A DNA stretch of 58,608 nt, counting the filler, from Sphacelaria rigidula (lineage: Eukaryota), in the NCBI GenBank assembly GCA_964200075.2. It is 10 parts of 10 records of this genome, joined end to end, with 100 filler letters (N's around TTAATTAATTAA, not from the genome) between each part and the next. Parts side by side here need not be neighbours in the genome. Positions count along the whole stretch, not along the records: positions 35,227 to 40,997 come from CAXNAA020024594.1; 9 more parts are not named here. One strand, given 5' to 3'. The translations under genes were made by a program, and so were the position numbers. This document shows positions 5,676-52,738 of the stretch, one piece after another. The number at the start of each line of letters is the position of its first letter. The stretch's first letter is position 1. The notes under the pieces were generated by a model that was not told the DNA's origin, ran no database searches, and was given only the letters and a program-made list of their open reading frames with translations.

Positions 5676-5771
5676 CTATGCGAGACGGAGGAGAGGGAGG
5701 ATGGAGGGGGGGGGGGGGGGGGGGGTGCCGGCGGCTCCTCTCGACGCGCGCCCTATGCCGAACCCCACCCA

Positions 5772-11497: not shown

Positions 11498-11607
11498 CTT
11501 TTTTGTCTGAATAAACCCTGAAGTTGCCTGTGCGGAGCGTAGCCTAATCGCAAGCGTAAGGGCTGAATCTCCTACTCAGCGCTGGGGTCTATGTGTAAGA
11601 AAAGGTC

Positions 11608-14437: not shown

Positions 14438-14573
14438 CTAGGATCGAAACAACGGGCGAAAGAATGGGGGTAATGATGATGCATAGCAGATGAAGGGCTA
14501 GATCAGCGTCATTACTGGGATGTGGGTGATGCAATGCTGCGCTTCGTCAATTGCGGATTCAAATCTAGGGGGG

Positions 14574-15097
14574 AATGGGGGGGGGGGGAGGAGGGTGCTC
14601 ATGATCTTGCATGCTATAGTCAAATGACCATTGGCCTCGCATTCCTACAAAGCCGGGACGGAACAGGCCGGGTTTTCGCCGGACCAGGCTCGCAATCAAC
14701 CACCAAGTGCGAAGCGCCGTGGTGTGCTCGACGAGTCGCATGAAGGGTGAGCTGCATCCTGCTAAGATTATTCCGCCTGAAGCGTACTGATTATCTTGCA
14801 TTTGAATTCAAGCTTTCAATGAGTCCCTTTATTTTGTGGTATTGCCACTTCCAGACAGAGCCACGGCTTTTACACTGCCTCACGAGTGTCTCATCATTTA
14901 AACACTACGTAGTACTATCATCTTCTTTGCGCGGAGTTGAGGTTCTTCCACCCAGCACAATATGATGTAGCTTTACCACTATCATCGTTACCACAAAAAA
15001 AAACGCAAGCGTGCGAAAAAAAAATCGGCAATCCGGTTGCCTAGCTTACGCAGTGAATCGCGTGTTTTACAGCGTCATCGCCAACCGACGCCAACCC
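14574..15097 (-). mobile_element. Poly(C)-tailed repeat family A, full-length copy
   Basis: Homologous along its length to 36310-36803; TAGGGGGG occurs on both sides (14566-14573, 15100-15107); a partial duplicate lies at 15113-15158. Confidence 0.85.
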
Positions 15098-16374
15098 CAT
15101 AGGGGGGTCCGACCCTACAAAGCCGGGACAGACCAAGCCGGGTTTTCGCCGGACTAGGCACCAAGCTGGGGGAGGGTTGAATAGGGCGTGGAAGGTAAAA
15201 TGGAAATGCGTCAAGCGGGCCTGTGCTGTGTACATCCAAGAACGTCTCTGAACAGGAGAAGGACTTACATTGAGCGTGCGGTTCCCGATCAACAGTGCTT
15301 CATCGTTTATTTGCAAGGGTGACACACACTGCGTTCCGTTTCTGGCGTCGTGTGCTGTCTCCGGCACAAAGAGAAACATGAGTGTCGTCTCATGAGGGGG
15401 GTGATGACGCTTGGTATTCCCAGGATGTGGGGTTCGATCGCAGCAAGAGGCGCGATGGCCTTGAGTCAGACAAAAAGTATCATTGCGCACTACTCATCGA
15501 CTGTCGCGCTGTACGCAGATGATCATCGATACGAAACAGTTTGGAAAAACCAAATTAATTTGAAAACATATTTTTTGGACGGAGGAGACGACAATCGATG
15601 TTTCTTGGGCTACTTGATGATAATTACTGTAGGGGATATGAGAGTTTGGTGTATGTTTTTTTCTTGTTTTGATTTTCTCTCAACAACGGAGAAGACGACA
15701 CAATATAGAGAGTTTCAGAGTGCAAATACCTCCGGGTCAGAGTGCAGAATAGAAAGAAAAAAACACTTCCTCGAAACAAAATTGTGATGATACCACATTT
15801 GACGGGGGGGGGGAGTCATTTCTGGTACACTCTGATCCTGAGATATTTTCACTCTAAAATGACAATAAAAAGCGTTTTCCGAAACTCTCTAAACTACTCT
15901 GTAAAAAAAATCGTCGGATGCGGGTGCCAGGAGGAACTGCTCACCAGCTCCGGATTCAGGCTCGCCCGTGACGACAGCAAACTTTTTTGCTACCCTTCCA
16001 CTGCTGACGGAATCATGTCCTGAACATGGTTCGCTACATCTCGACGCTCGGGGCGGGAGCAGCACATCCAGTCTGGTAGTGGTCGTGGGCTCGTCACACG
16101 TTGTTTCTGCGCAGGAACATGAAAATGATACACAGGGGGGTGTTCGTCAGGAATAGGGCGGGTGGGTTCGTATCGCAAGGCCTTGCTCGACAACTCGTGG
16201 CAATTTTGTCGACATACACACCTCTTCATTTCCCCTCTACTTTTCCCGCAGTGCCGGCGTTGTGCTATAGGGTATATAATTTGACGTTACTATCGGAATA
16301 ACGGTCGGGATTCGCAGACTGGGATCGCGGATATTCCCGGAACTACCACCAACCCGCCGCCTCCTGGGGTAGGA

Positions 16375-16702: not shown

Positions 16703-17141
16703 AACAACCGATCATCGAAATTGAGGATGGAGCTTTTCATTGAGGATGAGAACCCGGAGGATTAAAATCTTCGTAGCCACCCCGAATCTTCGAAATATGG
16801 TTCCATTCCTTTACCTACTGGTGGCTATTGACAAGTACTACATGTCATACAAGTTGTGATTTCGATAACCGAAATGTTGGGGTCCTACGTGAAAAAATAA
16901 TTCCGGGGAATTCCGGCGATCCGATCGGATCATCATCTGAATTCCCCTCAATTGTTTCTTTACCCAGGACCCCAGCATCTCGGTGATCGAAATCAATTTT
17001 TTTAGGATGTGTCATAGCTACCAGTAGGTGAAGGAATGGAATCATATTTCGAAGATTTGGTGTGAAATACGAAGCTTTCAATTCTCCGGGTTCTCAATCC
17101 TCAATGGAAAGCTCCATCCTCAATTTCGATTATCGGCTGTT
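16703..17141. repeat. ~440-bp imperfect palindrome (fold-back)
   Basis: 16703-16833 pairs with 17010-17141; inner arms pair too; centre GATCCGATCGGATC at 16918-16931. Confidence 0.9.
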
Positions 17142-17613: not shown

Positions 17614-19022
17614 GCAGGAGTCATACCCTTCGTCTACTCCCCCCAACCCCCTACGCTCTCTTTCTCTCTCCCCCCCCCCCCCCCCCCCCCCCCCAGGGCC
17701 CGCCCGAGCTCTCCCTCCTCCCATCCAGACACGTTTTTTGAGCTATGCGAAAACATCCATTCCCTCATTATCGCCACCCCCCCCGTTCCCACTCCCACCC
17801 TGCGTCTCTGCCTATGCGTACACCCCCCCCCTTTGCCTTGCCTGGTATCTTCCATGTTCATGGCAAAAGAAAAAGACAAGACCTGGCTATCTTCTGGCAC
17901 TGACCACCTCTTTTTAACAAGGTAAGTCGACTGCATATTCCTTCGTACCCTGTTCGCCAACCCCGCTCATATGTAAAATTTCATCCATATGTGAAGTTTC
18001 ATATATTGGATGAGTTGATAAAAAAAGAACTCCTCACCCGGTGTAACCATCAGCCGAGTGGGCCTCACAGCATTCCTTCACTCGTCCCCCCCCACCTCCT
18101 CCCCTCGTACTCATTGATTACGCGGCTGTCTTTGCGGTTTTTGATGAGATCATCATCCTTGTGTTGTCTTTTCGAGCGCTTACACGAAAAATTGCACACA
18201 CACACACACACACACACTCATGTATGTATGTGTGTATACTGTATATGCATATGAATGGCACTAGCAAAAATGACGAGAAAAAAAAAAAACATACACACGA
18301 AACAGAAATAAACGCGCAATCCATACCTTTGTCGGGGGGTTTTCTACAGCGACAATAGCGCAGCACTCCCTCCTCACTTTGCTTCGGCTAGGAGGACGAA
18401 ATGAACGAATAAAGGATAACATATTATTGAGAGATTGCCACTCGAAGAAGTGCCCATCACGTGCTATTTTTTTCATACTCCGGTATGTAAGTGTACGCTA
18501 TTTTTCCACCCAGCCTACTCGGGACTGTCGCCGTGCGCATGTGCCACGTATATTTCCACGAGTAATGTTAATAGGCGCCCTCTAAAGCAACGCCAAGGCT
18601 GAAAGATGGCGTGCGTTATATCTCTGCGGCCTCCAACCCCGCAACATGAATATCAACTTCAACGAATGTCTCAACATCTACCTACCTACCCTAACTACTG
18701 TGGGGAGAGGGAAGCGGGCTTACGCTCTGAGGTTTGGAGCGCACACCACCCTCTTTCGCTCATCCCTAAAACATTTATTTCTACTACCCGCCGACACTTG
18801 AGAGCAAACAGACAGGACAGGCCGGTCGTACTTTTTCGACGAGCGTAAAACTTCAGCTGCAGTAGTATGGCGAAAATTTAAACAAAATCAAAACTTTAGT
18901 TTAATCAAATGCGATTCTTGGCAGGAGAGAACGCAAGCTTAAAAACCTCATTTCTCGCTCATGAGCAAGAGACGAAACTCCGGGAAAAAAACGCCTCCCC
19001 CCCCCCCCTCCGCCCGCCCGTC

Positions 19023-19081
19023 TCGAAAGGGATGTGTGGTCAATGGTCAAACGACTAAGGCAAGCAACAAATGAGTACGCC
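19023..19081 (+). mobile_element. Poly(C)-tailed repeat, subfamily B, 5'-truncated
   Basis: GGGATGTGTGGTCAATGGTCAAACGACTAAGGCAAGCAACAAATGAGTACGC; flanked by CCCGCCCGTC (19013-19022, 19082-19091). Other copies: 41663-41686 (+), 44234-44275 (-), 46990-47057 (-). Confidence 0.8.
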
Positions 19082-20480
19082 CCCGCCCGTCCACCCTTGT
19101 GCACCGGTCCCCATCTCCCGTAGCATGAGCAGTAAAACGCTATTATGTAGCAGATTTTTTCCATTATTACTGATACTGGGTGAGAGAGAGAGACCGCGCG
19201 CACCAAAGACATGAATCAAGTGTCACGAGCATACGCAGGTAACTCGGCACATACAGCGTTCTGGTCCCTGGATAACAACAAAAAACCTGTCTCAACACAC
19301 TACAAAAAAAGCTCTCATGGCATTTATATACTATATATATATTGATGTGCCGCATCTACACCAAAATACATGATAGTGCTGCACACGTCGCCCTCCGTGG
19401 CCGGGACAAAAACAGCCCTCGTCCACCCATGGCGAGAGCATGCTCTACTTATTTTCACCATAACAGCTCCAAGAAGAAAAATAGAAAGGAAAAAAAACCC
19501 TCGAAGGAAAAATGCTGCGCCCGACAAGTTCTTCGCAAGGCGAAAGAACAAGACTCGTTTCTCCTCTCATGCTTGCTGGTACCATATATAATACGTGTTG
19601 CTCCCTGGAGAAAAACACGGGTTCTTTGGGGGGGGGGGGGGGAAGCCCACTGACACACACGCACGCACGCACAGGGTTTCGATCTTCCATGACGAACGAT
19701 TTGCTCGATTTTCATCACAATAACAAGAAACTGATTTTCACACGGGGAAAAATGGTTGACTATTGCAATTTCAATGCGGCATGGTCTGTTAATGGAGAGT
19801 ACGGTTTCTCTTGCAAAACTCGAGACGCAAAAGATACACCGCTAGCAATCAACACCCCTAACTAGTGGACAGCACAACCAGTACCAAACACGACAGTACA
19901 CCCTTTGTCAACACGTCTCCCCCCGCCACCCCCGTTCCCCCCTTTGTCGCCACACTTGACTTTTCACATCTACTATAACTTTTTAGGCCATGGACATGGA
20001 CGCAACTGTCGTGTTGTTTCCTAGATTTTTGCATGTTTGTATACCGCATTCTATCGCACGTTATAGCCACTGGATATACACGACAGCCATCTCTCCTATC
20101 TTGAATTATCCGCCAGTAATGGAGACATTTTGAACGGACCAACAGACGTATAAAAAATATTCATCTCCTGCCAAAAAATATACCCCTCTTCAGTTCAACA
20201 CACAGATTTCCAACACGGTCGATCGCACGCAGTTCATTTTTCTTGATTTTTTTTTTTCATACATCAATATCCCTTCGAATGGACTTTGTACCTCAAAAAA
20301 CCACGTCATCTTTTTACACAAAATCCTCCCATCGGAGTGCGCGAACAACATCGAGGAGCACGGCACTAAAGATGGAAAAGAAACCAAGGAATACAATCCC
20401 TATGTACATGCAGGAGACCGAACACAACCACATTTTCCACATATTTCACCTTCTCCCCCCCCCCCCCCTCCCCCCCTCCC

Positions 20481-20530
20481 AGTGGTCTTATGACTATGGC
20501 ATGCATGATCACGAGTACACCCCCCCCCTC
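20481..20530 (+). mobile_element. Family A 3'-end fragment between C-runs
   Basis: TGGTCTTATGACTATGGCATGCATGATCACGAGTACAC followed by poly(C). Confidence 0.75.
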
Positions 20531-22974: not shown

Positions 22975-23283
22975 ATGGTGAGGCACCCATGAGGCAATGT
23001 GTAAGCCGTGGCTGTCTCAGGAAATGGCGTACCCAGAAAACGGGGCAACCCATCGTAGGTTGTCATCCAAATGCAAGATGGTCAGTACACTCCAGGCCGA
23101 ACAATCTCAGCAGAGGATGCAGCTCACGCTTCATGCGACTCGCAGGACACATGACGGTGCTTCGCGCTTGGTGATTGATCGCGAGTTTGGTTCGGCAAAA
23201 ATAAAAACAGCGTGCTCCGTCCCGGCTTTGGGGGGATGCGAGGTCACTGGCCATACGACTGCGGCATGCCACATCATGAGTAC

Positions 23284-23323
<40 letters not shown>
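22975..23323 (+). mobile_element. Family A, 5'-truncated copy with long poly(C) tail
   Basis: GGTGAGGCACCCATGAGGC...CATCATGAGTACA followed by ~40 C; preceded by CCCCTCCCC. Confidence 0.85.
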
Positions 23324-23384
23324 ACCCCACCACCTCCCAACCCAGCCAAAACAACAACAAAAACAACGCCACACCCACACACAC

Positions 23385-27756: not shown

Positions 27757-28283
27757 TGAAGAAATGCAGATGAAGATGACGGTATTGGCATTGAGAGCGA
27801 AACAAGCAGAGGATAAGAAGAAGAGAGCAGAAGAAGAGATAGAGGGGTATAAAAAAGAGCGAGAATATGTGGGGATGAACACGGTTTGCTTTGAGACCAG
27901 CGGGAGGAGAGGTATTGGGAGCGGATGCTGGAGGATCAGCGGGTGGAGTTGGAGGCTCTGCAATGCATATGAATCCGGCGGAAGGTCGGGAAGGTATAAA
28001 TCGAGATTTCCACCATATATGTTTTATGGTGGAAATCTCGATTTATACCTTCCCGACCTTCCGCCGGGTTCATATGCATTGCAGAGCCTCCCACTCCACC
28101 CGCTGGTCCTCCACCATCCGGTTCCATCACCGCTCCTGCCGCTGGTCCTCCAGCACCCGTTCTCATCCCCACATACTCTCGCTCTTTCTTATACCCCTCT
28201 ATCTCTTCTTCTGCTCTCTCCTTCTCCTCCTCTACTTCTTCCGCTCTCAGTGTCAATACCGCAATCTTCTTCTGCGTGTCTTT
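27757..28283. repeat. ~530-bp inverted duplication of a coiled-coil coding fragment
   Basis: Arms ~260 bp, 7-nt loop at 28018-28024; both arms translate to AEEEIEGYKKERE...EDQRVE.EALQCI*. Confidence 0.92.
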
Positions 28284-33802: not shown

Positions 33803-34180
33803 CGCACATACGCCCTGTACATCGTGTCAAAATTTCATCGAAAACGGCTTGAAATTGAACAGCACAAAGGCGTTTGAATTATTCGTAACTAGTCCACCTC
33901 CATATACGATAGTAACCGGTTGTCAACGGAATGACGCATATTTTTCGCTCTATTTTGGATCGTTTTCGATGAAATTGCGAGACGATGTACAGGACGTATG
34001 TGCGAACACAAAACCTTCTCCCCACTTTTTTTTTCTTTCCTCCGTGAGTTATTGGCGACGGCAGTTTTTCCGGAACAAAATTGTCAATAACTCACGAAGA
34101 AGAATAACAAAATCGGGGATGGAAGGTTTTGTCTGCGCACATACGTCCTGTACATCGTGTCGAAATTTCATCGAAAACTA
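33803..34180. repeat. Three alternating (+,-,+) copies of a ~45-60 bp motif, MITE-like
   Basis: CGCACATACGYCCTGTACATCGTGTCRAAATTTCATCGAAAAC at 33803 (+), ~33961-34004 (-), 34136 (+). Confidence 0.75.
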
Positions 34181-34394
34181 TCCAAATTTGAGCGAAGGAT
34201 ATGCGTTTCAACATTCCTAGTGGCTTCTTGGGCGGTCCAGCTCGTAGAGTTTGCACCTCAGGGGCCTTTCTGTGAATCGGCATCATTTTCACTCGTTTTC
34301 AAGCAAAAATTATTATTTATTATTATTTTTTAATGATGCTGATTCCCAAAAAGGCCGCTGCGTGCGAACCGCATGATTCTTCTGACAATCCGGT

Positions 34395-35226: not shown

Positions 35227-36309
35227 AACTTATTGTACTAAAACCAAGTAATTTCCTGACGAATCATTATTTGTCCTAACCGTGTAAGATTCCCGTCAGA
35301 TCACCGGCTTTCAGGGCTGTGACGGCCGCTTCGGACGATTCGACCGTCTTGGATGTAAACCGCGAAAACAAAACTCCTGTTCCGAAAAAAATATATATAT
35401 GATCCTACTCTCATGAACATATTGGTGGTGTCCGTGTGTCGCCGCGTGTTTGAATATTCGCCTCATATGTTGTCCCAACATTAACACATTTGCACGATGA
35501 TTTTCATTGAGCCGCTCACTCTCTGCGTATGGGCATACATCGTGTGTTTACCTTGATGTTTTTTCACACCATCGGCGGGTATTTCAGGCCCGTGCGTGCC
35601 TATGCGTCGCACTTCTTTAGTGCATGCGCCATTCTCCAGTGGCAGGAGTGATGTGCTTGTGTCTGTGTATCTGTGTGTACTTGGGTTTGCGCTGTCTGAG
35701 TTCATGAAGCCTGGGTTGTCCTTTCGAGCCCTCCTACGATAGAGTTTGGGGGGTGTTTTTGGAGGCTAGTTAACCGACGTTGGGCTAAAACTGTTCATGG
35801 TTAACATATGTTGGAAGTATCATCACCTCTAAAACCCTAACCCCAACCCAACGCATACCGAGAACCCTCGGGCAAGGGCGGTACATAGCATTCATTCCCT
35901 GGGCAAAAGTGCGGCCTTGGTAGACCCCAAATCGGCGCCTGTGGCGCCGATATCAACGAAAATGTGCTCTGCGCACGCGAGGAGTACACGGCACTGTCAG
36001 TCCTACGAATGGTCCGATTCCCGTTGTACACACTCAAATCAAGTAAGGTGTGAACCATCGACATTTGTAGCCCAACGACGGTTAACTCTACTGTATTTTT
36101 GAGTCATTTTTCCCCACGAAAATATCACTTCAACGTCGATGAAAGCAGCAACTTTTGTTCGAACACGCTTCGTACCAATAAAGTGCACTCCTTTATACAG
36201 CTTGACACGGGTTTCACCCACATACAAGCGCACCGCGGTTGCGTTAGGCCGTCTGACACACTGAAGAACCCCTATTTTTCGTGGAATCAAAACACCCTCC
36301 CCCTGTCGT

Positions 36310-36803
36310 GGGTTGGCAACCAAGCTGGAAAACACGCTACTCACTACGTAAGCAAGGCAACCAGGTTACTTGCTTGTTTTGAGTCGCTTGCGTTTTTTTT
36401 TTTGCGGTAACCATGATAGTGGTTGAGTTAGATCCTATCGTGTGGTGTGGAGAACTTCAACTCCGCGCAAAAAGGATGATCGTGCTACGTAGTGTTGGAA
36501 TGGTGGGACGCCCATGAGGCAGCGGGTCACCGGTGGCTGTCTCTGGGAGTGGCGATACCAGAGCACGAAGCGACTCATTGTAGGCTGTGATCCAAATGCA
36601 AGATAATCAGTAGGCTTCGGGCCGAACAATCTTAGCAGGATGCAGCTCACCCCTCATCCGACTCGCCGAACACACCACGGCGCTTCACGCTTGGTGATTG
36701 ACTGCGAGCCTGGTCCGGCGAACACTCGGCGCGCTCCGTCGCACCTTTGCAAGGATGCGTGGTCAATGGTCACATGACTATGGCATCCAAAATCATGAGT
36801 ACA
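36310..36803 (+). mobile_element. Poly(C)-tailed repeat family A, full-length 494-bp reference copy
   Basis: Runs GGGTTGGC...CATGAGTACA; flanked by a perfect 10-bp direct repeat CCCCTGTCGT (36300-36309, 36804-36813). Confidence 0.9.
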
Positions 36804-37244
36804 CCCCTGTCGTAAGATCACTCTTTCCGTGCCCCATTTCCCCCGTGCCTCGCTTCCCACACACACAACAGGGCCGATGCTGTAGCTCTCGTTGATTGCT
36901 GTCATGTGCGTGTTCAAGCTGACTTTTGTTTTTTACATTTTCTTTCATACGCAGAGAACTGATGAGTGGAATTTTGGGCTGAACTTGAGTCGGAGCGTTT
37001 TTTATCCGCACTGTCCGAAACGTTGGCGTGGCGATCGTAATATGTTGCGTGGTGGTAGTAGTGCGGAAATAAGCCGCCCCTATTGTTTGCAAGAACATCC
37101 CCTCACTTTAGGAATTCTGCCGCTACCCATGCCGCTTCGCCGTGCCACCCATATGTGGGGAACCGGATGTCGCACGCAGCACCCACCTTGCGCCTGTTTT
37201 TTTATTTTCGTCTGACTTTTACCCCTCGCGTGTCATACTCCCAG

Positions 37245-37339
37245 GCAGGAATCAAGGGCCCCGCGAACGTCGTGGGAGAGAGCTTCGGTGGCATGGTCGC
37301 ACAACGGTTTACTCTTGATTTCCCGGAGAAGGTTAATCG
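37245..37339 (+). CDS. Internal exon of an alpha/beta-hydrolase (nucleophile elbow)
   Basis: CTGAC branch motif, CCCAG| acceptor, |GTGAGT donor; AGIKGPANVVGESFGGMVAQRFTLDFPEKVN contains G-x-S-x-G followed by the typical A..F....PE.V helix. Confidence 0.85.
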
Positions 37340-37516: not shown

Positions 37517-38715
37517 GAGCTGTTGGTGGATGCGCCGAACCAACATAGCAATCCCCGACGCACAAGGAGCCCTTTATTGTAGAGAGGCCTCAATTCGAAC
37601 TACCAACCCGGGGCTGGCTTTTCCCGACTGTGGCAACTTCCGGTCCCTGACCACAAGCCAACAAGCCCGAATGGCCGACATGTTCAACTATTGCATTAGA
37701 CGATTGCTGAACGTCATTGACAACACCAGGTATATCGAAAAAACCCTCACTTCATATTGGCGACACGATGAGGTAACTCTGTACGGTTCATGAGCAGAAA
37801 GTCCCGGGTTCGAATCCGGATTCTTATCTGGGAGTTTCTGCTCATGAAGCGTACAGAGTTAGTTGCCTCATCGTGCCGTCAATGTGAAGAGGGGAGTTCT
37901 CGATCCACCTGGTGCTTTTGCGAACCGGTTAACGTAGACCAGCTGTCGCGTGTCGTAGTTGAATGTGTCGGATCATTCCGGCTTGTTGATTCGCGGTTAG
38001 GAGGCGGAGGTTGCCTTGGTGGGAGAAGCCACAACCCCGGGATGATAGTTCGAATGTAGGCATCTCTAAAAGGGCTCCTTGTGCGTTCGGGAACGCTGTG
38101 TTGGTTTGGTGCAGCCGATAGCTATTAAACCCTCTGATAGCTCTCGGCTGCGCCGAACTAACATATTAGTCCCCGAGGCCCTTTAGAGAGGCCTCGATCC
38201 GAAGTACCGACACGGGTTTGATATCACCGATCGTGGCAACCGCCGGTCCCTAGTCGAAATCCAACAAGCCGGAATGACCGACACGTTCAACTACGGCACT
38301 GGGCAGGTGCTCTACGTCACCAACAACGCCAGGTGATTCGAGGAAATCCCCACTGATTGGCTGGTTGATTGATTGATTGATCATCTCACATTAGCTGATT
38401 GCAACAATCCAGCCCGTGGTCAGGAGCAGCAAAACAACAACATAATAAAAAAACAAAAAAAAGAAGGAAAGGAACAGAAAAAAAGACAGAAGCAACGGCC
38501 TCAGACAGAAAGGGAAGAAGAAAGGGAGCAGCGATAACAACGGAAACAACACCATCACAAACGGCAACAGCAAGAACAAACAACAACAGCAATAACAACA
38601 ACAATAACAACAAAAATAACGACAAACAAACCACTCCACATTCGCGACACGATGAGGTAACTCTGTACGGTTCTTGACCAGAAAGTCCAGGGTTCGAATC
38701 TCGGCTCCCACGAAC
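37517..38715. repeat. Three alternating (+,-,+) ~300-bp units each ending in a tRNA-like segment
   Basis: 37517-37817 (+), 37818-38123 (-), 38138-38354 plus 38636-38715 (+); B-box GGGTTCGAATC in the + copies. Confidence 0.8.
38355..38630 (-). mobile_element. (AATC)n-tailed retroelement nested in the third tRNA-like unit
   Basis: Minus strand GACCACGGGCTGGA...CAGCTAATGTGAGATGATC(AATC)n; CCACT duplicated at 38350-38354 and 38631-38635; host unit resumes afterwards. Confidence 0.7.
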
Positions 38716-40523
38716 CTGACGAAAGAATGAATATCCCATGTAGAGGGGCAACATCAAGTCGTAATAGTGATCGGGTGCCAGACAACGGATGGGTGCGTAG
38801 CAGGCAGAGCTCACAACCTCACGGGAGTAGCTTTTACGGAGATCCTCTGGCTTGGCAACTCAACACACGTAGAGAGTATGAAGGAGAAGGGTTCACAAAT
38901 ACCCTCGCCGCTAGCTGGTGAATAAAAGGTCACCTTCACAAACCTCTTCTCGTCGAAGAACGCACGGAGAGGCTCATGAAGGGCGGGGGGAGGGGGGGTG
39001 ATGAAGTGGATACCACTGCATACAAGAGGAAAAATAGCGTTGAGTGTCCACCGGGGATATCACCTTTTCATACACAGATTCGAAGTGTTGCATACCCTGG
39101 ATAATGACAAGACGTTACATTGTCAAGAAGTGTGCTGCGTACAGTATCGACTATTGCATCTATCGCAATAAACAGTAGATACCATACTGGACGCATTTAT
39201 ATTTCTTTACAACGGAATCTATTGTCACCATCCAGGTGTGAAATAACTCATGCACAACTAAAGCAGGGCGATAAAAAAAGGGCTTCAATGCAAGCAAATA
39301 CCAGCTGGATACAGCAATGGATCGATGTAGTGCACGCCCCTATGCCAATTCAGCGGCGGTGCCGGGTGCAGCCGTGCGATCAGCGCACTATTATTCTGTA
39401 CCGCACTGTGCTTGCCTTTCAAGTCAACCAAGGCGTGCAGAAGCGGTGAACCCTTTTGGAGAGTGTACTCGCCCATCGATGCCCACGCAGGCCATCTACA
39501 GTGGCAAGCGCATGTCAGTGCAATAACGATAGGCAACGCGGTCACGAACAAGGTAATTCCAGTGAGTCAAGAATTCCCCATAGACGTCTCCACTGCACTC
39601 GCATCACGCCGGGCGCATCCCGGTACTGTGATGAGCGTGGTTTGCCGTGAGAGGTTGCTGTGGTGCACGGTGACTGCACTGGATTGTATCATACCATACA
39701 AAAATGTTCGGGACATGGATCTTTTGTCGGGAATGTAGTCCTGACCGAAATTGCACGGCTCTTCATGTATGTACTGTTTCACTCCATAATTTGTTGTAGA
39801 CCTGCACATACATTCCGTATGTGCATGTGTACATCCTGAGTGTCACGCCAACCATGAGTAACGTTGGCTATGTCTGCTAGCGACCACCCCCGAACAGATC
39901 GTTTTGGTCGTCAGTTGGCCAGGATTGCTGAACGGTTAAACGATACGTGCAAACAATCGATTCGTTATTGTCGGTCGCCCAGAAACCGGAGATTATCCGG
40001 CGCCTTAGTATGCCGTAACTGATACGTGAAATATGTTCTAATTGTTGTGCGCGAACTAATCGTATCTAAATCATGGTATGTGCCTTTCCGGGCGTGTCAA
40101 AGGTGTACTTACTTTTTTTATGTTTCTCGGTCGTGGGAATCCGCCGTGCAATGCTACACTAGCAAGTGCAGCCACACACACCCGGCCCGGTCGAAATCTC
40201 TCGAAAAACGGTTTCAAAGTAACAGCCAATATTGCGTGGGGATTCACCGCTCTTGTGGGGGGTACCATGGGAGGTGAGAGAGACAGGAACCGCTAGGTGT
40301 GTGGCATTATCGTGGATTGGGACGCTTGAAATCGCGTTATCGCTAAGCTCCTTAGGCGGGTTGCAGAAACGCCACAGAAATCTGATAACAGTGGATGATA
40401 AAAACCATCTCGGGCAAGAAATATTTTTCGGCCAATAAGAGGAACCGACGAACAGGAATGTCCACCACCCCGCATACTGGGTATCACTTATTTGAATGAT
40501 TCGGCTAATGAACTTATGGGGAA

Positions 40524-40555
<32 letters not shown>

Positions 40556-40771
40556 AGGGGGAGAAACCCCGCCAGCAGGAACACAAAGAACGCACACACT
40601 CGCGGCGGGCGGCACAAGAAAAAAAAAAANNNNNNNNNNAAAATTTTTCGGCCAAAAAAAAGAACCGACAAAAAAGAAATCCCACCCCCCCCCCTACCGG
40701 GTATACCTAATTGTAAAGATTCGGCTAATGAACTTATGGGGAATCCCCCCCCCCCCCCCCGTCTCCTCCCA

Positions 40772-40997
40772 AAAATGGTGAGACACCCATGAGGCAGAGA
40801 ATAAGCCATGGCTATCTCTGGAAGTAGCAACACCAGAAAATGAAGTAACTCATTTTGGGCCGTCATCCAAGTGCAAGATAATCAGTACACTTTGGGCCTA
40901 ACAATGGCAGCAGGATGCAGGTCACCGCGACTCGCCGAACATACCACGGCGCTTCACGCTTCGTGATTGATTGCGAGCCTGGTCCGGCGAAAACCCA
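40772..40997 (+). mobile_element. Family A, 5'-truncated copy cut by contig end
   Basis: ATGGTGAGACACCCATGAGGC...GGTCCGGCGAAAACCC; preceded by a C-run. Confidence 0.85.
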
Positions 40998-41097: not shown

Positions 41098-41160
41098 GGG
41101 ATGCGAGGTCAATGGTCTGATGACTATGGCAAGCATGATCATGAGTACACCCCCCCCCTC
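41098..41160 (+). mobile_element. Family A 3' end at contig start
   Basis: GGGATGCGAGGTCAATGGTC...ATCATGAGTACA followed by poly(C). Confidence 0.85.
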
Positions 41161-41182: not shown

Positions 41183-45408
<4,226 letters not shown>

Positions 45409-46868
45409 GTGAGAAATAGAGCGGTGGTGGTTTGATTATGCCACTGAGTATGCCGGACAACACTTTACGCGTATCTTGCTGGTTGAAGTACGTGTGAGGT
45501 ACACCGTCCGCGGGGCGTCCGTCGAAGACTAAGCACTCGCTTCATGCGGGAGCGAGCAGTATCGTTCGCTCGGAAGTGCTTCAAGAGCCGGCCGCTTCGA
45601 AGTCGACTACTTACGGTAGGATTGTCGTGGAGTTCAACACAACAGTTCGTTTTTGCAGACGCGATCTTCACGTTCGGGCGCTGAAAAATAAAACCTGTCC
45701 TTTCGTTTTGCTCCTGCTATACGTTTTTCTCCGGAGGAACGCGTACGCGCGTCCTGCTGCGCTACGTATTGAACAGTAGAAAATTGCAATAATGGTTAGA
45801 CGAGAAAGCTTACATCTGAACTGCAAGCGCCGGGTTGCAATTAGCACGGAGGAGCACACCTCTTGTTTTCAAGATGTTAACGTTTGCGGTCACTGGATTT
45901 CTGTAAATACACACAAACTTTGCGGCATTTCAGTCGTTGCGAGAGGCCCGCCATTGGATATCGCAAGTAGCCTACGGAATGTGAGTTGACGTGAGGGCGG
46001 AAACGTAGGCTCTCTGACGGCCTGCGGCTTTCCCGTAGCCGAATGTATACAGTAGCGCGGTTGAGGCCAATGAATCGAAACAGGTATCTTTTTCACAGTT
46101 GGAAACTTGTTTAGGATAGCCGCTTTCTATCTCGTCGTAAGAAGTAGCTACAATATGAAAAAGAAGTACAGTGGTTTTTCTACTGTCGAATTTCGAAAGT
46201 CCTTCGCCGTCTTCTAGATAGCCGATCCTCAATGATGCTGGATGAGACGGGAACCGGTCTGCTGCAGCGGCAACGTAAGGTGTCCCATGGTTGCACACAA
46301 ATTGCGACAAACTGTTCTCTTTGAAGCGTGGGTTTTGAGACGTGACACTCGGACCATGCGGTGCAAATGCGCCATTTGTCTACTGAAAAATCATTTAAGC
46401 TGAAAGCGTACTATCGGTTCCCGGCATGGTGAATGACAAACTCTGGGCAGACTGCTTCGAAACCCTTTGAAACCTGCTACAACAGACGCACAGGTGGAAA
46501 AAGGCGAAGAAATGGACAGAAGTCTGCCGCACACAACGGACATGACTCTTGACTTTTGTCGAACCACTGCTGATCGCGTGGACTTGCGCTCACATCATGT
46601 GGTATTTTGGTCAAAGTATTTCTTGAGTGGATAGCTAGTTATCGCCTGCTGTTTCCCCGCAACCCTGCTGTTCGTTTCCTCCACGCATTCATTCAGTCAC
46701 TGCCGGGTCAATTTCTAGTATTATTATTGATACTTCGATTCGTTCTGCAGTCAAAACGCCGTTTCTTTCGGACGACGAATTGAAATATCGATAACTGCGC
46801 CCCACCGCCATTTGGTTAGACACCCATGAGGCAGTGCAAAAGCTGTGGCTGTCTCTGGAAGTGGCGAT

Positions 46869-46968: not shown

Positions 46969-47079
46969 GTGGGGGGGGGGGGGGGGGGGGGGGCCGTACT
47001 CATTTGTTGCTTGGCTTAGTCGTTTGACCATTGACCACGCCTCCCTTTCGAGACGGAGCACAATTCCTTCTCCTAATAG

Positions 47080-50000
47080 AGACACCTCCTACACCACGAC
47101 TGTGGGGGGGGGCTCTTCCACAGGTGGACAGCTTTCGTTGATTCGGTGAAAAAAGCTAGGTATAGTGCGGCTGAAAAACAAAATGCGTTGGCGAGAGAGG
47201 TTGAGGCGAAGGCAAGGGCCGATAAACTTCGCAGAGAGGCCTGGGCCAGGAAAGTCATCGGCCGGCAGGCAAGTGCAACAACCCGAACAAACGATGACGA
47301 CGAGACACACGCGGTACCCCGGTCATGATCGAGTGTCGCGTCGTGAGTGCATGAACCATCAATTTGACGTTGGTCATTCTCGAGCACCGATTAAAAGGGT
47401 CAAGACAATAATCCACTTTTTATTCGGCGTTTCACGACTGGTGAAATCGGACATGTATCACAACCACAGCCAAAATCCAGCGAATTGATCAGCTTCCGAC
47501 AGCACCACGCGAGGAGCGGTGCAGTATTTGCCTGTGGTGCTACCATACAGCAGCAATAAGCGTGACCTCACACACGTTTCATTATTGTCTGCACACGTGT
47601 GACAAAGCTGTTTCACGCATTATTGCATTTACTCTAACCGACCAACTAAGGGAACGCTACTACCCTGGTCGCAGCAGCGACACTCTTTTTTCCTGGGCAA
47701 TGAACACCGCTCTGTCCCTGACATTCATGGCGAGGATCATTTTGTTTCCACCTGTTGATAGCGGCAGACCTTTTCGACGGGAGTTGCACCAGCAATTACC
47801 ATGCCTAGAAGAACCGTTAAAAGAACAACTTGACTTCGAGTAAATTTCTGACTTCGGTTCTCGACTTATCGATGCGAACAAAGCGCTCGAACCCTCCGTT
47901 ATGTTCGGAGTTTCCCAGATTGAGGTGCACGTTGCGCTGTGGCGTTTCAGCAAAATTCGACGGCGCATGGTGGTTGCCACGGCTAGGGCTGAAGCGTTTC
48001 GGGGAGCTAAACAAATGGCACTGATTCAGGCGGTGACGACAGCTTGGAAAAAGACCGCCGCTGAGCGCGGGGTGTTGAGGAAAAATATCTTGGAGATGAG
48101 GCTGCGACATCTGACCAGGGTGAGTCTGAGAAAGCGTGTCGGAGCAGAGTTCACACTCTAAGGTGTACAGTTGTTTTTTTGCGAAAACCCGAGCAAGCGG
48201 AACTGGCAACGCAAGAGTATTGATTGGGCAGCGACACATTCCGACCGCAACTGCGTGGTAGCAGCATAGCATGCTGTGTGTCATCATCTAGTAACTATAG
48301 TTGCCGTGTGGCATCACGAAGTGAGTTCAAGCTGAGCATGTGGAAGCATCTGTGGAAAGCCGATAACATTTTGACATGCACATGCGCAGTGACATGTTCG
48401 TTGCGCGTAAAGATTGCATCAAGGCATGACAAATGCACACAGTATTTTATGTGTGTGAGTACGTGAAAAGGTGAATACTTGACAGAAGTTTGTGGGAATT
48501 TGTCTCTTCTATGTGGTGGTTCCCACATCACCTCCCCCTTTCACGAACCGCTTCGAGGTTTTGTAGGGTTGTCCTTTCACGCCGGCGAGTGGTTTGAAAC
48601 AGGCTTTTTAAGTCACATATAATTGTCACTTCTATGCAGTCCCCACCTCAACCCCCCCTTTCACGAACCTCTTCGAGGTTTTGTATAATTTACCTTTCAC
48701 GCCGGCGAGCGGTTTGAAACAGGCTTTCTAAGTCACGTATTTTCTACGTGTGTTGGGTCACCTATACAACAATCACCGCAGGGGGCTTTCCGTGCGTTTT
48801 CGCACTTTGCTTCAGAGGATATCCACCATTTGTTTTGGCTCCCACCGTTTTGGTGGAGTCCGGGATTTGAACCCGGTACCTTCTGTTCGTGAAGCCAATG
48901 AGCTATCTCATGGTGTCGCCAATGCGAAAAGGTGGTTCCTTGACAGATACTTGTGCGAATTCGTGTCTTCTATGTGGTGGTTCCCACAAGTACATGTATA
49001 TGTACATGGGACTGCATTGCACTTGGGAGCGTCTGAAAAACGGCTTGCGGGAAATTGTCCTTGTTGCGGGGGAAAAACCCGAGACGGTTCCGGGTATCAT
49101 GTACATTACTTAGCCGCAGGTGTCAGTTGACGAAGCCGTTGACCAGTGGCATTGCGCAACCGTACTGTGTGGCAAACAGATGAAGGGTCAGTTACAGATG
49201 CGAGTCGAAACCTAAAAAAACACATATCTACCTTAGGCAGCGAAGTTCAGAATGCGTTTGCTGTTGGCTTGCCGAGCTTGTTCGCACCACGCATGTCTTC
49301 TGCGATGGGGCATATCGTGCCTCTGGGCAACCGATTCCATGAAACAGCCTGCCGTAGAACACTCGTAGAGTGTCTAAAATGTCCTAGACAGGAGGTTTCA
49401 CGGCTATGTACTCAATGCTCATGACCTCAACATGGATGTGCTCCGAAATGGTTGAGGAGCTCCGAAATAGTTGAGGAGCGCATGTACACCAACTCTTGAT
49501 CACTTGCGTGACCGTTCTATTTATGGATTTCTCGTTTTGTACAACGGCACAGATGCGGCAACGGCTTCTCTCAGCATGGGCAAAGCATGCTGCGACAACC
49601 GCAAGGGAACGGCGGGAGAAGGACATCGCTGAAAAAGATGTCGCCACACGTCAAATAGCAGTAGCCATAAGGGTCCAGGCCTTGGTGCGGGCTCATCGCG
49701 GAAAGGAGGTACAACAATACCACAGCACGACATTTTTCATATTGGAGAAGGGACGGCTCCGTCGTGTCGAAGCATAAAACGAACATTTGTATTCATGGTT
49801 TCGTTTCGTCGTGCTTATGTACTCGAAGGCCACGGAACATGCTACGCGTTTTTCCATACCTACCATCTCCCCATCGTTCACGACGGCCTCAAAGGTCTAC
49901 CGTTTTCCAATATTTTCATGTTTCCTTAGCTCTTCTTTTTTCCCCTCACTTTCCCGTTTATTTCGGTACGTCGCCCACCCGTGGTGGCCAACGAGCGCAC

Positions 50001-50863: not shown

Positions 50864-52738
50864 ACGACGACAGCTCGCCCCTCGATATTCGACGATGTGG
50901 GAGTGCCGTGAACCCTCGGGTGAATTGCGTCCATTGATGTCGTAACGGTGGTCGCATCACTGATAGCCGTACTGCTGGGGAGATCTGGTCGAGATGTGTC
51001 GATAGAGCTACTCTTTTGACAGAGCAGTCTCGTGCTTCTGGGAAAGATTGTATCTTCAACAAGTAGTCACAGGGCGCGACAACCGCTTGCAGAGCGGTTG
51101 CTAGCAGTATAGAGGAAGACTATTAGATACGGCTCTGAAACAGCACCGATCGTTCGCTTGAGATGACTTCTGACAAGTATCAAAATCGTTCATACATGAC
51201 TCATCTATTGGGGATATGAGAAATAGACTCCAGCGACGACGAAGCTGTAGGCAGTGTCCCGGCATTGTCCGAATTGTTTTTTCTCTTTGTAGGATCGGTC
51301 ACGGTTATGTCTTGTGCTATCAAGGGTAATTGTGTCCGCGACCACGGGATCACAACTAGTTGATGAATGCTGAGATAATCCCCCCACAAAAAGTGCACCG
51401 GAGACCGTCCGAAAAACCGGCTGTGATCCCACTATTCCGCTCGCGTGCAGCAATTTCGCCCACACGAGAGGCGTGTAGCAGTCCGAAATCAGCTTAAACG
51501 CCCAGATGAGTCGCGTCGTGCAGCACGAATCCAGCTCTAGCGGCCTTTATTATCATCGCCTCCGTGCACTTTTCTGACCGGTTCAGGGGGGGGCTATCTC
51601 GGAAGCAGTCAGTTGCGCCTTCTTTTCGGATAATGACGTGAAACTCTGAACAGCACCGTAGAAAAGAGCGACTCTCGTGTCACTGAGATGCTGTATTGGT
51701 CTGCTGTTGAAGGCACAATTTGTCGCGAAAGTCCAAGGCATATACCATCCAAACATTGCATTTTCGAGCTTTCAAGTACCAGGCCGTCTATATCCAAATT
51801 GGATCCATGTCTGTTACGAACTTTTTCACGTAATGTTGTCATGCCTTCAAGTCCTGCACTTCCAAATTAAGAAATGGTAGTGTCATACTATGCCATACTC
51901 ACAAGGCGTCGATACTTGAAACATCAGCCACGGAGTTGGTTCTTTTCGCAGCCAACTCATCTGACGTCGTTGCAGCATCTTCCTACACTTTTCCCTGTTC
52001 ACCGATACTAGATTTTATCTTTCTGTTTTTTCTCGATTTCATACTCTCACTTTTTCTTTCCCGTATTTTTTGTTCAAGCCGTTCCGTACTGATCCGAAAA
52101 TTAAGTATTTATGGGCGAATCCCTCTTGACTAGCCGCGACTTTTGCCCCTCGAAGAAAGGGCTAGGCCGATGCTGCCTCCTCGGGATGGTTTGACCTTCT
52201 ATCCGAGAGGAATCGGACACATCTTCGCAGCCTTCGTGTGCACGCAGTTTGACTTTCAACCGAATCGGGGGTTTGTCACGGTAGTCACCAGGAAGCACCA
52301 AATGCACGGGCAAGAGCGAGCGAATCGAAGATTTTTGAGTTCTAAGCGTTTGTCCAAGAAGATTCGATTCTATAACAGCTAAACCTTGTATTGCTGACGC
52401 CGGAGAACGCAAGGCTGCCGACGCACCGGCATATCAAGTATAGCAACGTTTCCCGAGGTGTCAGCATGCATCAAGCCCTTCTCCTGGGCGTAAAACGACG
52501 CAGAAGGGTCGAAACGTTCATATTTCGAGACACATGTCTTCAGGTCATCATGAAAAAAACAGCATCACTTTTTTTCTTTTCTTTTTCCCTCACACTTTGA
52601 ACCCCTCCCCTTCCTCGAGATGAGTCCATAGTCTCAAGGGATTAACCCATCTCTCCCCCGGTACGTGCCCTCACCTCTAGACTCTTGGGTTGGCGTCGAG
52701 TGGCAACGGCGCTGTAAAAACAAGCCACCAAAACCTAG

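What the first reader, a model, noticed from the sequence alone, without database searches (positions are those of the whole stretch)
36300..36813. Candidate poly(C)-tailed retroposon that targets C-runs (mirror image of L1/Alu poly(A) insertion)
Seen: at least 13 copies or fragments across seven contigs. Every copy not cut by a contig end keeps the 3' terminus ATGAGTAC(A/G)C (minor variants) followed by poly(C), while 5' ends vary from the full ~500 bp down to 22 bp. There are no TIRs beyond GGGT/ACCC and no ORF. Four copies have 8-10 bp flanking direct repeats that start with a C-run merging into the tail: CCCCTGTCGT (36300/36804), CCCGCCCGTC (19013/19082), CCCCTCAT (44831/44861) and CCCCCCTA (minus strand, 15107/14573). 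Established: a fixed 3' end, 5' truncation and variable target duplications that begin with the tail base are hallmarks of target-primed reverse transcription. Inference: an endonuclease nicks the G-strand and the GGGG-3'OH primes on a C-rich RNA tail. I know of no well-characterised poly(C)-tailed SINE/LINE pair; Penelope-like elements that target simple repeats are the main alternative.
Basis: partly seen in the sequence, partly recalled or inferred. Interest (0 to 1): 0.75.

Follow-up and report, generated by a model that had tools for sequence, protein, structure and literature searches.

The report
Poly(C)-tailed LINE-dependent retroposon in an alga
The repeat is a real, very abundant non-coding "hitch-hiker" retroposon that ends in a run of C and lands at C-runs, copied by a reverse-transcriptase element with the same tail, but the same kind of pair has already been catalogued in the brown alga Ectocarpus.

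Summary
The window is 10 pieces of about 5.77 kb joined by N spacers. It carries about 15 copies or fragments, in 5 pieces and not seven. They end in ATGAG(T/C)AC(A/G) followed by a C-run of 4 to about 40 C.

A C-run of 4 or more lies within 30 nt upstream of 12 of 13 5' junctions, against 8.7% at random positions. Two target duplications are unambiguous: CCCCTGTCGT and CCCCTCAT.

I found the missing autonomous partner in public contigs. It is a LINE of at least 5.1 kb with one 1382-aa ORF holding an APE endonuclease, a reverse transcriptase and a CCHC knuckle. Its stop codon lies inside the conserved ATGAGTAC terminus, and a C6-C13 tail follows. The 494-bp element shares only its last 55-70 nt with this LINE. 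Four of the window "copies" are 5'-truncated LINE ends.

So this is target-primed retroposition by an APE LINE, not a Penelope-like element. It is not new in kind. The curated Ectocarpus transposon library (PMC12477816, supplement 3) lists RTE-X LINEs with "(C)n 3'" and "C-rich" TSDs, plus non-autonomous RTEX-N1 and RTEX-N2 that share about 60 bp of 3' end. The best named relatives of the LINE protein are Ectocarpus proteins.

Verdict: a new member of a known kind. The priming mechanism itself is untested.

The parts
36310..36803 (+). Reference copy of the non-coding element ('family A', long form). It is near full length and lacks about 10 nt of the GGGTTGGCGTCGGTTGGC head seen in other copies.
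36300..36309 (+). 5' copy of the target-site duplication CCCCTGTCGT. The 3' copy lies at 36804-36813.
   Evidence: A paralogous repeat reads through the equivalent site, which is suggestive only.
14594..15097 (-). Full-length family A copy, 79.6% identical to the reference. Its tail CCTCCT-C12-ATT runs to 14574. CCCCCCTA lies at 15107-15100 and at 14573-14566.
15113..15160 (-). Fragment of element positions ~375-448 just upstream of the full-length copy. It lacks the 3' terminus and is the one exception to the fixed 3' end.
22975..23284 (+). Short form of family A, starting at element position ~191. It is followed by C39 and more C-rich sequence (23285-23340).
40771..40997 (+). Short form of family A, starting at position ~190 and cut by the end of the piece. 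Its 5' flank is C16 followed by 13 nt.
46811..46868 (+). Short form of family A, starting at position ~192 and cut by the end of the piece.
41098..41149 (+). 3' end of a family A copy, cut by the start of the piece. It is followed by C9TCCC.
44577..44817 (+). Family A copy with a full-length head and an internal deletion joining position ~210 to the terminus at a shared CATGAG. Its tail is CCT-C14.
44839..44860 (+). A 22-nt 3' fragment inserted into the C-tail of the previous copy. Its TSD is CCCCTCAT (44831-44838 and 44861-44868).
20480..20519 (+). A 40-nt 3' fragment. The flanks are C7TCCC on the 5' side and C9TCCCC on the 3' side.
52688..52738 (+). 5' head of a family A copy (GGGTTGGCGTCG...), cut by the end of the piece.
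19018..19079 (+). 5'-truncated 3' end of the autonomous LINE (95.8% to L005 5091-5161). CC(C)GCCCGTC is repeated at 19013 and 19082, and it overlaps the element's first bases (microhomology).
46995..47096 (-). 5'-truncated 3' end of the LINE (92.9% to L005 5053-5165). It encodes the last 30 residues of the ORF. The tail is at least C23 (46971-46993) and is cut by the start of the piece.
44239..44273 (-). A 35-nt LINE 3' fragment inserted in the C-rich end of an unrelated repeat.
41666..41679 (+). Possible 13-14-nt LINE terminus (ACAAATGAGTACG) lying between C9TTAAAC and C6TAAC. The evidence is weak.

Best explanation
The 494-bp repeat is a non-autonomous retroposon with no protein and no recognisable small-RNA head. 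It is copied in trans by an APE-endonuclease LINE of the RTE-X type and carries that LINE's last 55-70 nt.

Shown here:
- A LINE with a single endonuclease-RT ORF ends in the same ...GGTCAATGGTC...ATGAGTAC(G/A) block followed by a C-run.
- The ORF's stop codon lies inside that block, so the shared block is the end of the coding region.
- Both the LINE and the short element occur as 5'-truncated copies with a fixed 3' end.
- Insertions sit just downstream of C-runs. Where the duplication can be read, it starts with the C-run.
- New copies land in the C-tails of older ones.

Inferred, not shown:
- The endonuclease nicks the G-rich bottom strand.
- The freed G-run 3'-OH pairs with terminal C residues of the RNA, which could be read-through of the genomic tail or made by slippage.
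- It then primes reverse transcription at the conserved 3' block, which the reverse transcriptase recognises (a 'stringent' LINE/partner relation).
- Second-strand cleavage about 7-25 bp downstream gives the variable duplication.

Each insertion leaves a new C-run, so the family creates its own landing sites.
For: Terminus and tail:
- The terminus plus C-run is found in 11 of 12 window copies.
- ATGAGYACNCCC occurs 7 times against 0.04 expected.
- In the four runs laid, contigs that reach 36807 run on as loose ends. Their consensus is C18-C23 for 275 contigs in X1 and 269 in X4. The LINE-type terminus plus C12 is seen in 41 contigs of X5.

The partner:
- L002, L003 and L004 (metagenome contigs) and L005 (a contig of a genome bin) carry an element of at least 2 kb; L005 holds at least 5.1 kb of it.
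- L002 and L003 are 80.7% identical over 2050 nt.
- The element ends in AAATGAGTACGCC plus C6-C13.
- ORF L005:999-5147 has Exo_endo_phos (8e-11), Exo_endo_phos_2 and RVT_1 (6.7e-32).
- The C-terminal motif G(C/R)VVNG, encoded by the shared block, is kept in relatives down to 41% identity.

Shared part only:
- Window 36753-36807 matches L005 5103-5156 at 85.5%.
- There is no other similarity between family A and the LINE.

Target:
- A C-run of 4 or more lies within 30 nt upstream of 12 of 13 5' junctions, against 8.7% of 20,000 random sites. The binomial P is 2e-12.
- Exact duplications with informative non-C parts are CCCC-TGTCGT and CCCC-TCAT.

Tail targeting:
- The 22-nt copy at 44839 lies in the tail of the copy at 44577.
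- A family A head follows the LINE's C13 tail in L005.
- A contig joins 36806 to 36329 head-to-tail (table 5c).

The family is very abundant. Of 7,725,350 contigs in X1, 52,204 were laid on the 1.4-kb stretch. The figures for the other runs are 32,790 (X3), 40,220 (X4) and 13,081 (X5).

The same architecture is curated in Ectocarpus.
Against: - The full LINE was found in public metagenome or bin contigs, not in the window's own genome, which is not held. The window has only LINE ends of 102 nt or less. L005 is 93-96% identical to those ends, but it may come from a related species.
- No RNA evidence exists for a C-tailed transcript.
- In the reference copy and in the 22-nt copy, every C after the terminus can be assigned to the duplication. 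A tail on the RNA is not required by those two copies.
- Outside its non-C part, the TSD signal is barely above the mismatched-flank control (8.7 against 6.9).
- Fragment 15113-15160 lacks the terminus.
- Three 5' ends coincide at position ~190. That is not what random truncation gives.
- The small hairpin predicted in the shared block has no covarying pair: 0 of 11 pairs.
- No empty allele was seen.
Confidence: 0.85

Rival explanations
1. This is site-specific insertion into pre-existing (C)n microsatellites with no C tail on the RNA. The element RNA ends at ...ATGAGTAC(A/G), and every C beside a copy comes from the target. Long 3' C-runs arise later by replication slippage.
For: - C-runs flank both sides of most copies.
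- In the reference copy and in the 22-nt copy, the C's after the terminus equal those of the duplication.
- The window has C- or G-runs of 12 or more that are not next to a recognisable copy, for example 17670, 29423, 7847 and 5725.
Against: - The 3' runs are often much longer than the run in the matching 5' flank. The copy at 22975 has C39 against CTCCCCTCCCC, the copy at 47096 has at least C23 against C9, and 20480 has two extra C.
- The loose-end consensus after the terminus is C18-C23 across hundreds of contigs.
- The Ectocarpus curators record '(C)n 3'' as part of the consensus.
- This rival differs from the best explanation only in where the C's come from. The two may both be partly true.
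Confidence: 0.2
2. This is a Penelope-like element or its non-autonomous derivative, integrating at simple repeats by a GIY-YIG endonuclease or by annealing to G-rich ends.
For: - PLEs show 5' truncation, partial tandems and a bias for microsatellites (PMC8557442, passages seen).
- A partial fragment sits directly upstream of the full-length copy at 15097.
Against: - The element that carries the identical terminus encodes an APE (Exo_endo_phos) endonuclease N-terminal to RVT_1, and no GIY-YIG domain.
- The upstream fragment lacks the element's 3' end. A pseudo-LTR would keep it.
- Rfam finds no hammerhead or other family in the window.
Confidence: 0.02
3. This is a DNA transposon, MITE or Helitron-like element that happens to prefer C-rich sites.
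For: It is a short non-coding repeat with flanking direct repeats. A Harbinger-type DDE fragment is present elsewhere in the window (2402-2845).
Against: - There are no terminal inverted repeats.
- The duplications vary in length, from 7 to about 23 bp.
- Copies are nested sets that share the 3' end and differ at the 5' end.
- The terminus is shared with an RT-encoding element.
Confidence: 0.02
4. This is an assembly or sequencing artefact of homopolymer C/G tracts at contig ends.
For: Several copies abut piece ends, and one piece has an N10 gap beside C-runs.
Against: - Both junctions of the reference copy are covered without any difference by contigs of X1 and X3. In X4 each junction contig has 8 differences (table 8).
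- The same terminus plus C-run is present in four independent public contigs.
Confidence: 0.02

Closest known systems
RTEX-1_Ec32 and RTEX-2_Ec32 (autonomous RTE-X LINEs) with RTEX-N1_Ec32 and RTEX-N2_Ec32 (non-autonomous) of Ectocarpus. Source: PMC12477816. I saw main-text passages and supplementary file 1, part 1.
   Same: - Single EN-RT ORF.
- '(C)n 3'' tail.
- 'C-rich' TSD.
- A non-autonomous element of a few hundred bp with '5' head unknown', sharing only about 60 bp of 3' end (83%) with the LINE.
- 'Can be present in tandem'.
- The most abundant family of its genome.
- A second, shorter non-autonomous family with the same tail.
- The best named relatives of the LINE protein found here are Ectocarpus proteins, at 58-73% identity.
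   Different: - The host is different. Identity to the best long Ectocarpus protein is only 58%.
- The sizes are 494-505 bp and about 305 bp here, against 607 and 188 bp there.
- Apparent abundance is far higher here.
- Direct alignment to the Ectocarpus consensus sequences was not possible, because the FASTA supplements cannot be read here.
- I did not see in that paper the stop codon inside the terminus or the conserved C-terminal peptide. I read passages and one supplement part only.
'Stringent' LINE/SINE pairs that share a 3' block and end in a short simple repeat, such as eel UnaL2/UnaSINE1 (recalled, from no call), or the RTE elements with (CAA)n and CRE with (CA)n listed for Ectocarpus.
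   Same: The partner carries the LINE's own 3' block. The tail is a simple repeat and not poly(A). Copies are 5'-truncated and have TSDs.
   Different: The repeat unit here is a single C. The duplication starts with that base, so tail and target merge. The recognised block is coding sequence, not a 3' UTR.
Human L1 with Alu (recalled general knowledge). The L1 ORF2p structures are the best PDB sequence match, at 2e-21 and over the RT only.
   Same: An APE endonuclease and target-primed reverse transcription. The TSD begins with the tail base. The partner is non-autonomous.
   Different: The tail is C, not A. The partner shares LINE sequence, whereas Alu shares only the poly(A). There is one ORF. 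No small-RNA-derived head was detected.
Microsatellite-targeting LINEs of the Tx1 and R1 groups (Kibi, Koshi, Waldo, Mino; recalled, from no call).
   Same: Insertion at a simple repeat that then flanks the element.
   Different: Those target di- to tetranucleotide repeats. As far as I recall they are not the most abundant family of their genomes. No test was made here.

Membership tests
RTE-X LINE with RTEX-N type non-autonomous partner (as curated for Ectocarpus, PMC12477816) | The autonomous element has a single ORF with an N-terminal APE endonuclease and an RT. | tested here: met
   L005:999-5147 is 1382 aa. Exo_endo_phos spans residues 193-415 and RVT_1 spans 763-1012.
RTE-X LINE with RTEX-N type non-autonomous partner (as curated for Ectocarpus, PMC12477816) | (C)n 3' tail. 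| tested here: met
   C6-C13 follows the terminus in L002-L005. Window copies have C4 to C39. The loose-end consensus is C18-C23.
RTE-X LINE with RTEX-N type non-autonomous partner (as curated for Ectocarpus, PMC12477816) | C-rich target-site duplication. | tested here: met
   12 of 13 5' junctions have a C-run of 4 or more within 30 nt upstream, against 8.7% background. The TSDs are CCCCTGTCGT and CCCCTCAT.
RTE-X LINE with RTEX-N type non-autonomous partner (as curated for Ectocarpus, PMC12477816) | The non-autonomous element shares only about 60 bp of 3' end with the LINE, and its 5' head is of unknown origin. | tested here: met
   55 nt match at 85.5%. There is no other similarity. Rfam and ARAGORN find nothing in the head.
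RTE-X LINE with RTEX-N type non-autonomous partner (as curated for Ectocarpus, PMC12477816) | RT phylogeny places the element in the RTE-X clade, alongside the Repbase RTEX references. | not testable with these tools
   No Repbase references are held. Indirect evidence only: the best named hits are Ectocarpus proteins, and in that genome the only curated LINEs with (C)n tails are RTE-X.
RTE-X LINE with RTEX-N type non-autonomous partner (as curated for Ectocarpus, PMC12477816) | Nucleotide homology of the 494-bp element to the RTEX-N1 or RTEX-N2 consensus. | not testable with these tools
   The consensus FASTA supplements are listed as unreadable.
Canonical SINE | A 5' head derived from tRNA, 5S, 7SL or snRNA with an internal pol III promoter. 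| tested here: not met
   Rfam at gathering threshold gave 0 matches in the window. At E<=5 on 36280-36830 it gave only one chance-level bacterial sRNA hit. ARAGORN found 0 tRNAs.
Canonical SINE | A 3' part derived from the partner LINE. | tested here: met
Penelope-like elements | A PLE-type RT with a GIY-YIG endonuclease (or none), and pseudo-LTRs that often carry hammerhead ribozymes. | tested here: not met
   The partner encodes an APE endonuclease. Rfam gives no hammerhead match. The upstream fragment at 15113-15160 lacks the 3' end that a pseudo-LTR would keep.
L1/Alu-type poly(A) retroposons | A poly(A) tail and A-initiated TSDs. | tested here: not met
   No copy ends in A. All tails and TSD starts are C.
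MITE / cut-and-paste DNA transposon | Terminal inverted repeats and a TSD of fixed length. | tested here: not met
   No terminal inverted pair among the 11 inverted pairs found. TSD lengths range from 7 to about 23 bp.

The most novel reading that the evidence does not exclude
RTE-X elements of brown-alga-type genomes may run a self-seeding cycle. The endonuclease and RT would use a G-run 3'-OH paired to a C tail, so that every insertion plants a new (C)n landing pad. In this alga the cycle would have driven a roughly 300-500-bp partner to a very high copy number and made C/G homopolymers the dominant long homopolymers of the genome. In the window there are 16 C/G runs of 12 or more, against 2 A/T runs. 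The recognition signal would lie inside the ORF's last codons, which would constrain a conserved C-terminal peptide (GxVVNG) at the RNA level and not at the protein level.
Probability: 0.4. Interest if true: 0.45.

Novelty: new member of a known kind. Interest (0 to 1): 0.3.

Why it matters
Retroposons with a homopolymer C tail are rare compared with poly(A) or microsatellite tails. It offers a natural test of how far base-pairing between a nicked target and the template tail decides where a LINE integrates.

In this alga the family is extremely abundant. It is probably a main source of long C/G tracts, which matter for assembly quality, replication and G-quadruplex or i-motif formation.

The kind of element has already been curated in Ectocarpus. 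The value here is therefore a second host, an explicit partner with its domain map, and junction-level evidence. It is not a new class.

Tried and rejected
- Whole-genome search: no genome is held for this window.
- Earlier notes of this scan: nothing for this genome or these sequences. A word search gave only unrelated poly(A) or other retroposon notes.
- Pfam on 193 window ORFs of 90 aa or more: no RT or endonuclease in the window itself.
- Rfam and ARAGORN: no small-RNA head.
- Viral-contig scan with the RT protein: no match.
- L001 from the metagenome scan is a chance pattern match with no other similarity.
- Sequencing runs: no RNA holder listed, so nothing can be said on expression or on RNA 3' ends.
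- Empty site: none of the 15 joints shown skips 36310-36813, and 272 joints were not shown. X1, X3 and X4 carry the filled site, and X5 contigs do not reach the junctions. This gives no evidence either way on mobility.
- Depth profile: it steps up about 20-45-fold near element position ~200 and peaks at 36605-36698. The tool warns that contig depth cannot rank parts of a stretch. Many alignments also break where the reference copy departs from the family consensus (loose ends at 36568 and 36740). I therefore do not use the profile as evidence for truncation or for the short form.
- Consensus fold of the shared 3' block: one 11-pair hairpin with no compensatory change, so a structure is neither supported nor excluded.
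- Family A body against the LINE 5' region and body: only chance-level matches.
- Paralogous 'empty site': the repeat at 36097-36303 has a paralogue at 44478-44275 that reads ...CCCTATCGT AGCATGACTC across the equivalent point. Similarity beyond the site is only 15 of 20 nt, and blastn finds nothing further. This is suggestive only.
- Literature: 'poly c tail' with retrotransposon gave 0 papers. Non-LTR with poly-C gave 13 papers, none listed about C-tailed elements; the one I checked concerns internal tracts of L1 3' UTRs. The search tool cannot match 'poly(C)' written with brackets, so these blanks are weak.
Full report
WHAT THE WINDOW IS

The 58,608 bases are ten pieces of 5,770-5,771 bp joined by N44-TTAATTAATTAA-N44 spacers. 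No whole genome is held for it. Its content is eukaryotic:
- an FNIP-repeat ORF at 13068-14546 on the minus strand;
- a Harbinger-type DDE fragment at 2402-2845;
- a Copia gag-pre-integrase fragment at 55440-56228.

No reverse transcriptase is encoded in the window. This rests on 193 ORFs of 90 aa or more scanned against Pfam. The runs that hold the DNA are labelled with a coded organism, and one is labelled 'algae metagenome'.

THE OBSERVATION

The reference copy is exactly as described. It is 494 bp (36310-36803) between two copies of CCCCTGTCGT. Copies were sought with blastn, a self-comparison of the window and an nhmmer profile. The profile gave 14 rows. Twelve have E<0.01, and eight of those were its own training copies. 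Two tiny LINE-type fragments come on top. Together that is about 15 copies or fragments, in pieces 3, 4, 7, 8 and 9. This is five of ten pieces, not seven contigs.

Of the 12 copies whose 3' end lies inside a piece, 11 end in ATGAG(T/C)AC (one has ACGAGTAC) followed by C-rich sequence. That sequence ranges from 4 C to C39. The motif ATGAGYACNCCC occurs 7 times against 0.04 expected. The exception is a fragment at 15113-15160 on the minus strand. It covers element positions ~375-448 and lacks the terminus.

No terminal inverted repeats were found. Rfam and ARAGORN recognise nothing in the element.

5' ENDS

The 5' ends are not a smooth series of truncations.
- Four copies carry the full head GGG(C)TTGGCGTCG...: those at 15097, 44577 and 52688, and the reference, which lacks about 10 nt.
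- Three begin within about 4 nt of position 190: 22975, 40771 and 46811.
- Two are very short: 40 nt at 20480 and 22 nt at 44839.

The cluster at 190 suggests a distinct form of about 305 bp. This parallels the two non-autonomous families of different length described in Ectocarpus (see below).

TARGET DUPLICATIONS

I paired each 5' flank with the 3' flanks of other copies as a control. C-rich flanks match each other almost as well as true pairs do: the mean longest match was 8.7 for 9 true pairs and 6.9 for 72 false pairs. The weight therefore lies on the non-C parts:
- TGTCGT in the reference copy, at offset 0 on both sides;
- TCAT in the 22-nt copy, also at offset 0;
- TA in the copy at 15097;
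- GCCCGTC in the copy at 19018, where the last bases overlap the element's own first bases. That is a microhomology junction.

A separate test is stronger. A run of 4 or more C lies within 30 nt upstream, on the element's sense strand, of 12 of 13 5' junctions. The rate at 20,000 random positions is 8.7%, and the binomial P is 2e-12. In the thirteenth copy the run lies slightly further upstream. The layout is [C-run][0-20 unique nt][element]...[terminus][C-run][same unique nt]. This is what target-primed reverse transcription gives when the first nick falls in the G-run of the opposite strand.

THE PARTNER

A scan of public metagenome contigs used a pattern built from two conserved blocks of the 3' end. 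It returned three real relatives (L002-L004) and one chance hit (L001). On their minus strands, L002 and L003 are 80.7% identical over the whole 2,050 nt upstream of the terminus. They encode an open frame of 678 aa with RVT_1 at 2.8e-33.

A scan of genome contigs with that protein gave L005, a 5,259-nt contig filed under a bacterial bin. It carries one ORF of 1,382 aa (999-5147) with:
- Exo_endo_phos at residues 193-415 (8e-11);
- Exo_endo_phos_2;
- RVT_1 at residues 763-1012 (6.7e-32);
- a CxC...H...C knuckle near the C-terminus.

The ORF stops at the TGA inside ...AAATGAGTACG. Thirteen C follow. There is therefore essentially no 3' UTR, and the block that the short element shares with the LINE is the end of the coding sequence.

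That block encodes ...G-C-V-V-N-G.... The motif G(C/R)VVNG is kept in relatives down to 41% identity, including Ectocarpus proteins.

The window fragments at 19018-19079, 47096-46995 and 44273-44239 are 5'-truncated ends of this LINE. They are 96%, 93% and 87.5% identical to L005 respectively. The 494-bp element matches the LINE only over its last 55 nt at 85.5% and nowhere else. The best PDB sequence matches are human L1 ORF2p (2e-21) and an R2 protein (8e-21), over the RT only.

TAIL TARGETING AND ABUNDANCE

The 22-nt copy at 44839 sits in the C14 tail of the copy at 44577. In L005 the head of a family A element follows directly on the LINE's C13 tail. The copy at 40771 lies 13 nt after the C16 end of another repeat.

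I laid the contigs of four runs on 35900-37300 at 80% likeness or more. The numbers of contigs laid were 52,204 (X1), 32,790 (X3), 40,220 (X4) and 13,081 (X5). Almost all fell on the element, while the 3' flank is covered once. Contigs that reach 36807 continue as loose ends with a consensus of C18-C23 (275 in X1, 269 in X4). In X5, 41 contigs show the LINE-type terminus followed by C12. One X1 contig joins 36806 to 36329 through the head of a next copy, which is a head-to-tail pair. The reference insertion itself is present in X1 and X3 with no differences, and in X4 with 8 differences in each junction contig.

In the window, C/G homopolymers of 12 or more number 16, against 2 for A/T.

MECHANISM

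Shown:
- an APE-type LINE and a non-coding element share a 3' block and a C-run;
- both give 5'-truncated copies;
- insertions lie just downstream of C-runs, with duplications that start with the run;
- tails serve as targets.

Inferred:
- the endonuclease nicks within the G-run of the bottom strand;
- the G-run 3'-OH anneals to terminal C residues of the RNA and primes cDNA synthesis at the block that the RT recognises;
- the second nick falls 7-25 bp downstream.

The source of the C's is open. They may be read-through of the genomic tail, slippage, or purely the target. Two copies need no RNA tail at all, while several have 3' runs far longer than the run in their 5' flank.

COMPARISON WITH WHAT IS KNOWN

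A full-text search led to the curated transposon library of Ectocarpus (PMC12477816). I saw passages of the main text and part 1 of supplementary file 1.

The main text states that:
- it has more than 6,000 copies;
[quoted passage not shown] The supplement lists:
- RTEX-1a_Ec32: 'single EN-RT ORF; (C)n 3'', TSD 'C-rich';
- RTEX-2_Ec32: '(C)n termini/TSD';
- RTEX-N1a_Ec32: 607 bp, '5' head unknown ... can be present in tandem', '60 bp 3' end 83% RTEX-1_Ec32/RTEX-2_Ec32';
- RTEX-N2_Ec32: 188 bp, 'similar 3' tail'.

Every one of these features was met here. The best named relatives of the LINE protein are unnamed products of Ectocarpus sp., at 58% over 99% of the query and up to 73% over parts of it.

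Two things I could not test. One is RT-tree placement against the Repbase RTEX references. The other is direct alignment to the Ectocarpus consensus sequences, whose FASTA supplements cannot be read here.

Penelope-like elements fail on the endonuclease type. A canonical SINE fails on the head. L1/Alu fails on the tail base. A MITE fails on inverted repeats and on TSD length.

VERDICT

The requested RT partner exists, and it is an APE LINE. It is a new member of a kind that has been catalogued, though not mechanistically studied, in Ectocarpus. Interest is modest at 0.3. The open question is how the C tail is made and used.

Noticed in passing
window 40420-40555 and 40640-40760: Another repeat ends ...GATTCGGCTAATGAACTTATGGGGAAT followed by C31 and C16. 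The two copies are 83% alike and lie 220 bp apart, with an N10 gap between them. It has no similarity to the LINE terminus. It may be a further C-tailed family or a local duplication.
   Followed up: partly
L005 445-530 (minus strand): About 470-550 nt upstream of the LINE ORF lies an inverted sequence that resembles the LINE's own 3' block (GGTGCTCCGTCTC...GGTCAATGG...CATGAGTTCA) without an adjacent C-run. It could be an old antisense insertion or a feature of the 5' region.
   Followed up: no
L005 (whole contig): The contig is filed in a bacterial genome bin, yet it consists of a eukaryotic APE-RT LINE plus the head of the non-coding element. The binning is evidently wrong.
   Followed up: partly
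window 36097-36303 and 44478-44275 (minus strand): An unrelated repeat of about 200 bp (68% identity) ends in a C-rich stretch. In both copies it has received an independent insertion there: the reference element in one, and a 35-nt LINE end in the other.
   Followed up: partly
window 17670, 29423, 7827-7847 (minus), 5706-5725 (minus), 24006, 31085, 57558: Long C-runs (C12-C25) have no recognisable element terminus upstream. Their origin is unknown. They could be decayed tails, other families, or independent microsatellites.
   Followed up: no
window 27759-28282, 16703-17141, 37528-38116, 33934-34206, 25227-25578: Several long self-complementary (foldback) segments of 73-86% identity. They may be hairpin-type transposon remnants.
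   Followed up: no
window 1437-1896 and 3337-3631: Two related tandem arrays with 43-44-bp units, flanking the Harbinger-type DDE fragment at 2402-2845.
   Followed up: no
window 10085-11575 (minus) and 55440-56228: A 497-aa open frame with a gag-like look but no Pfam hit, and a Copia gag-pre-integrase fragment. Both are probably LTR-retrotransposon remains.
   Followed up: no
window 44577-44817: This copy joins element position ~210 directly to the last 9 nt at a shared CATGAG. It could be an internal deletion or a template jump at microhomology.
   Followed up: partly
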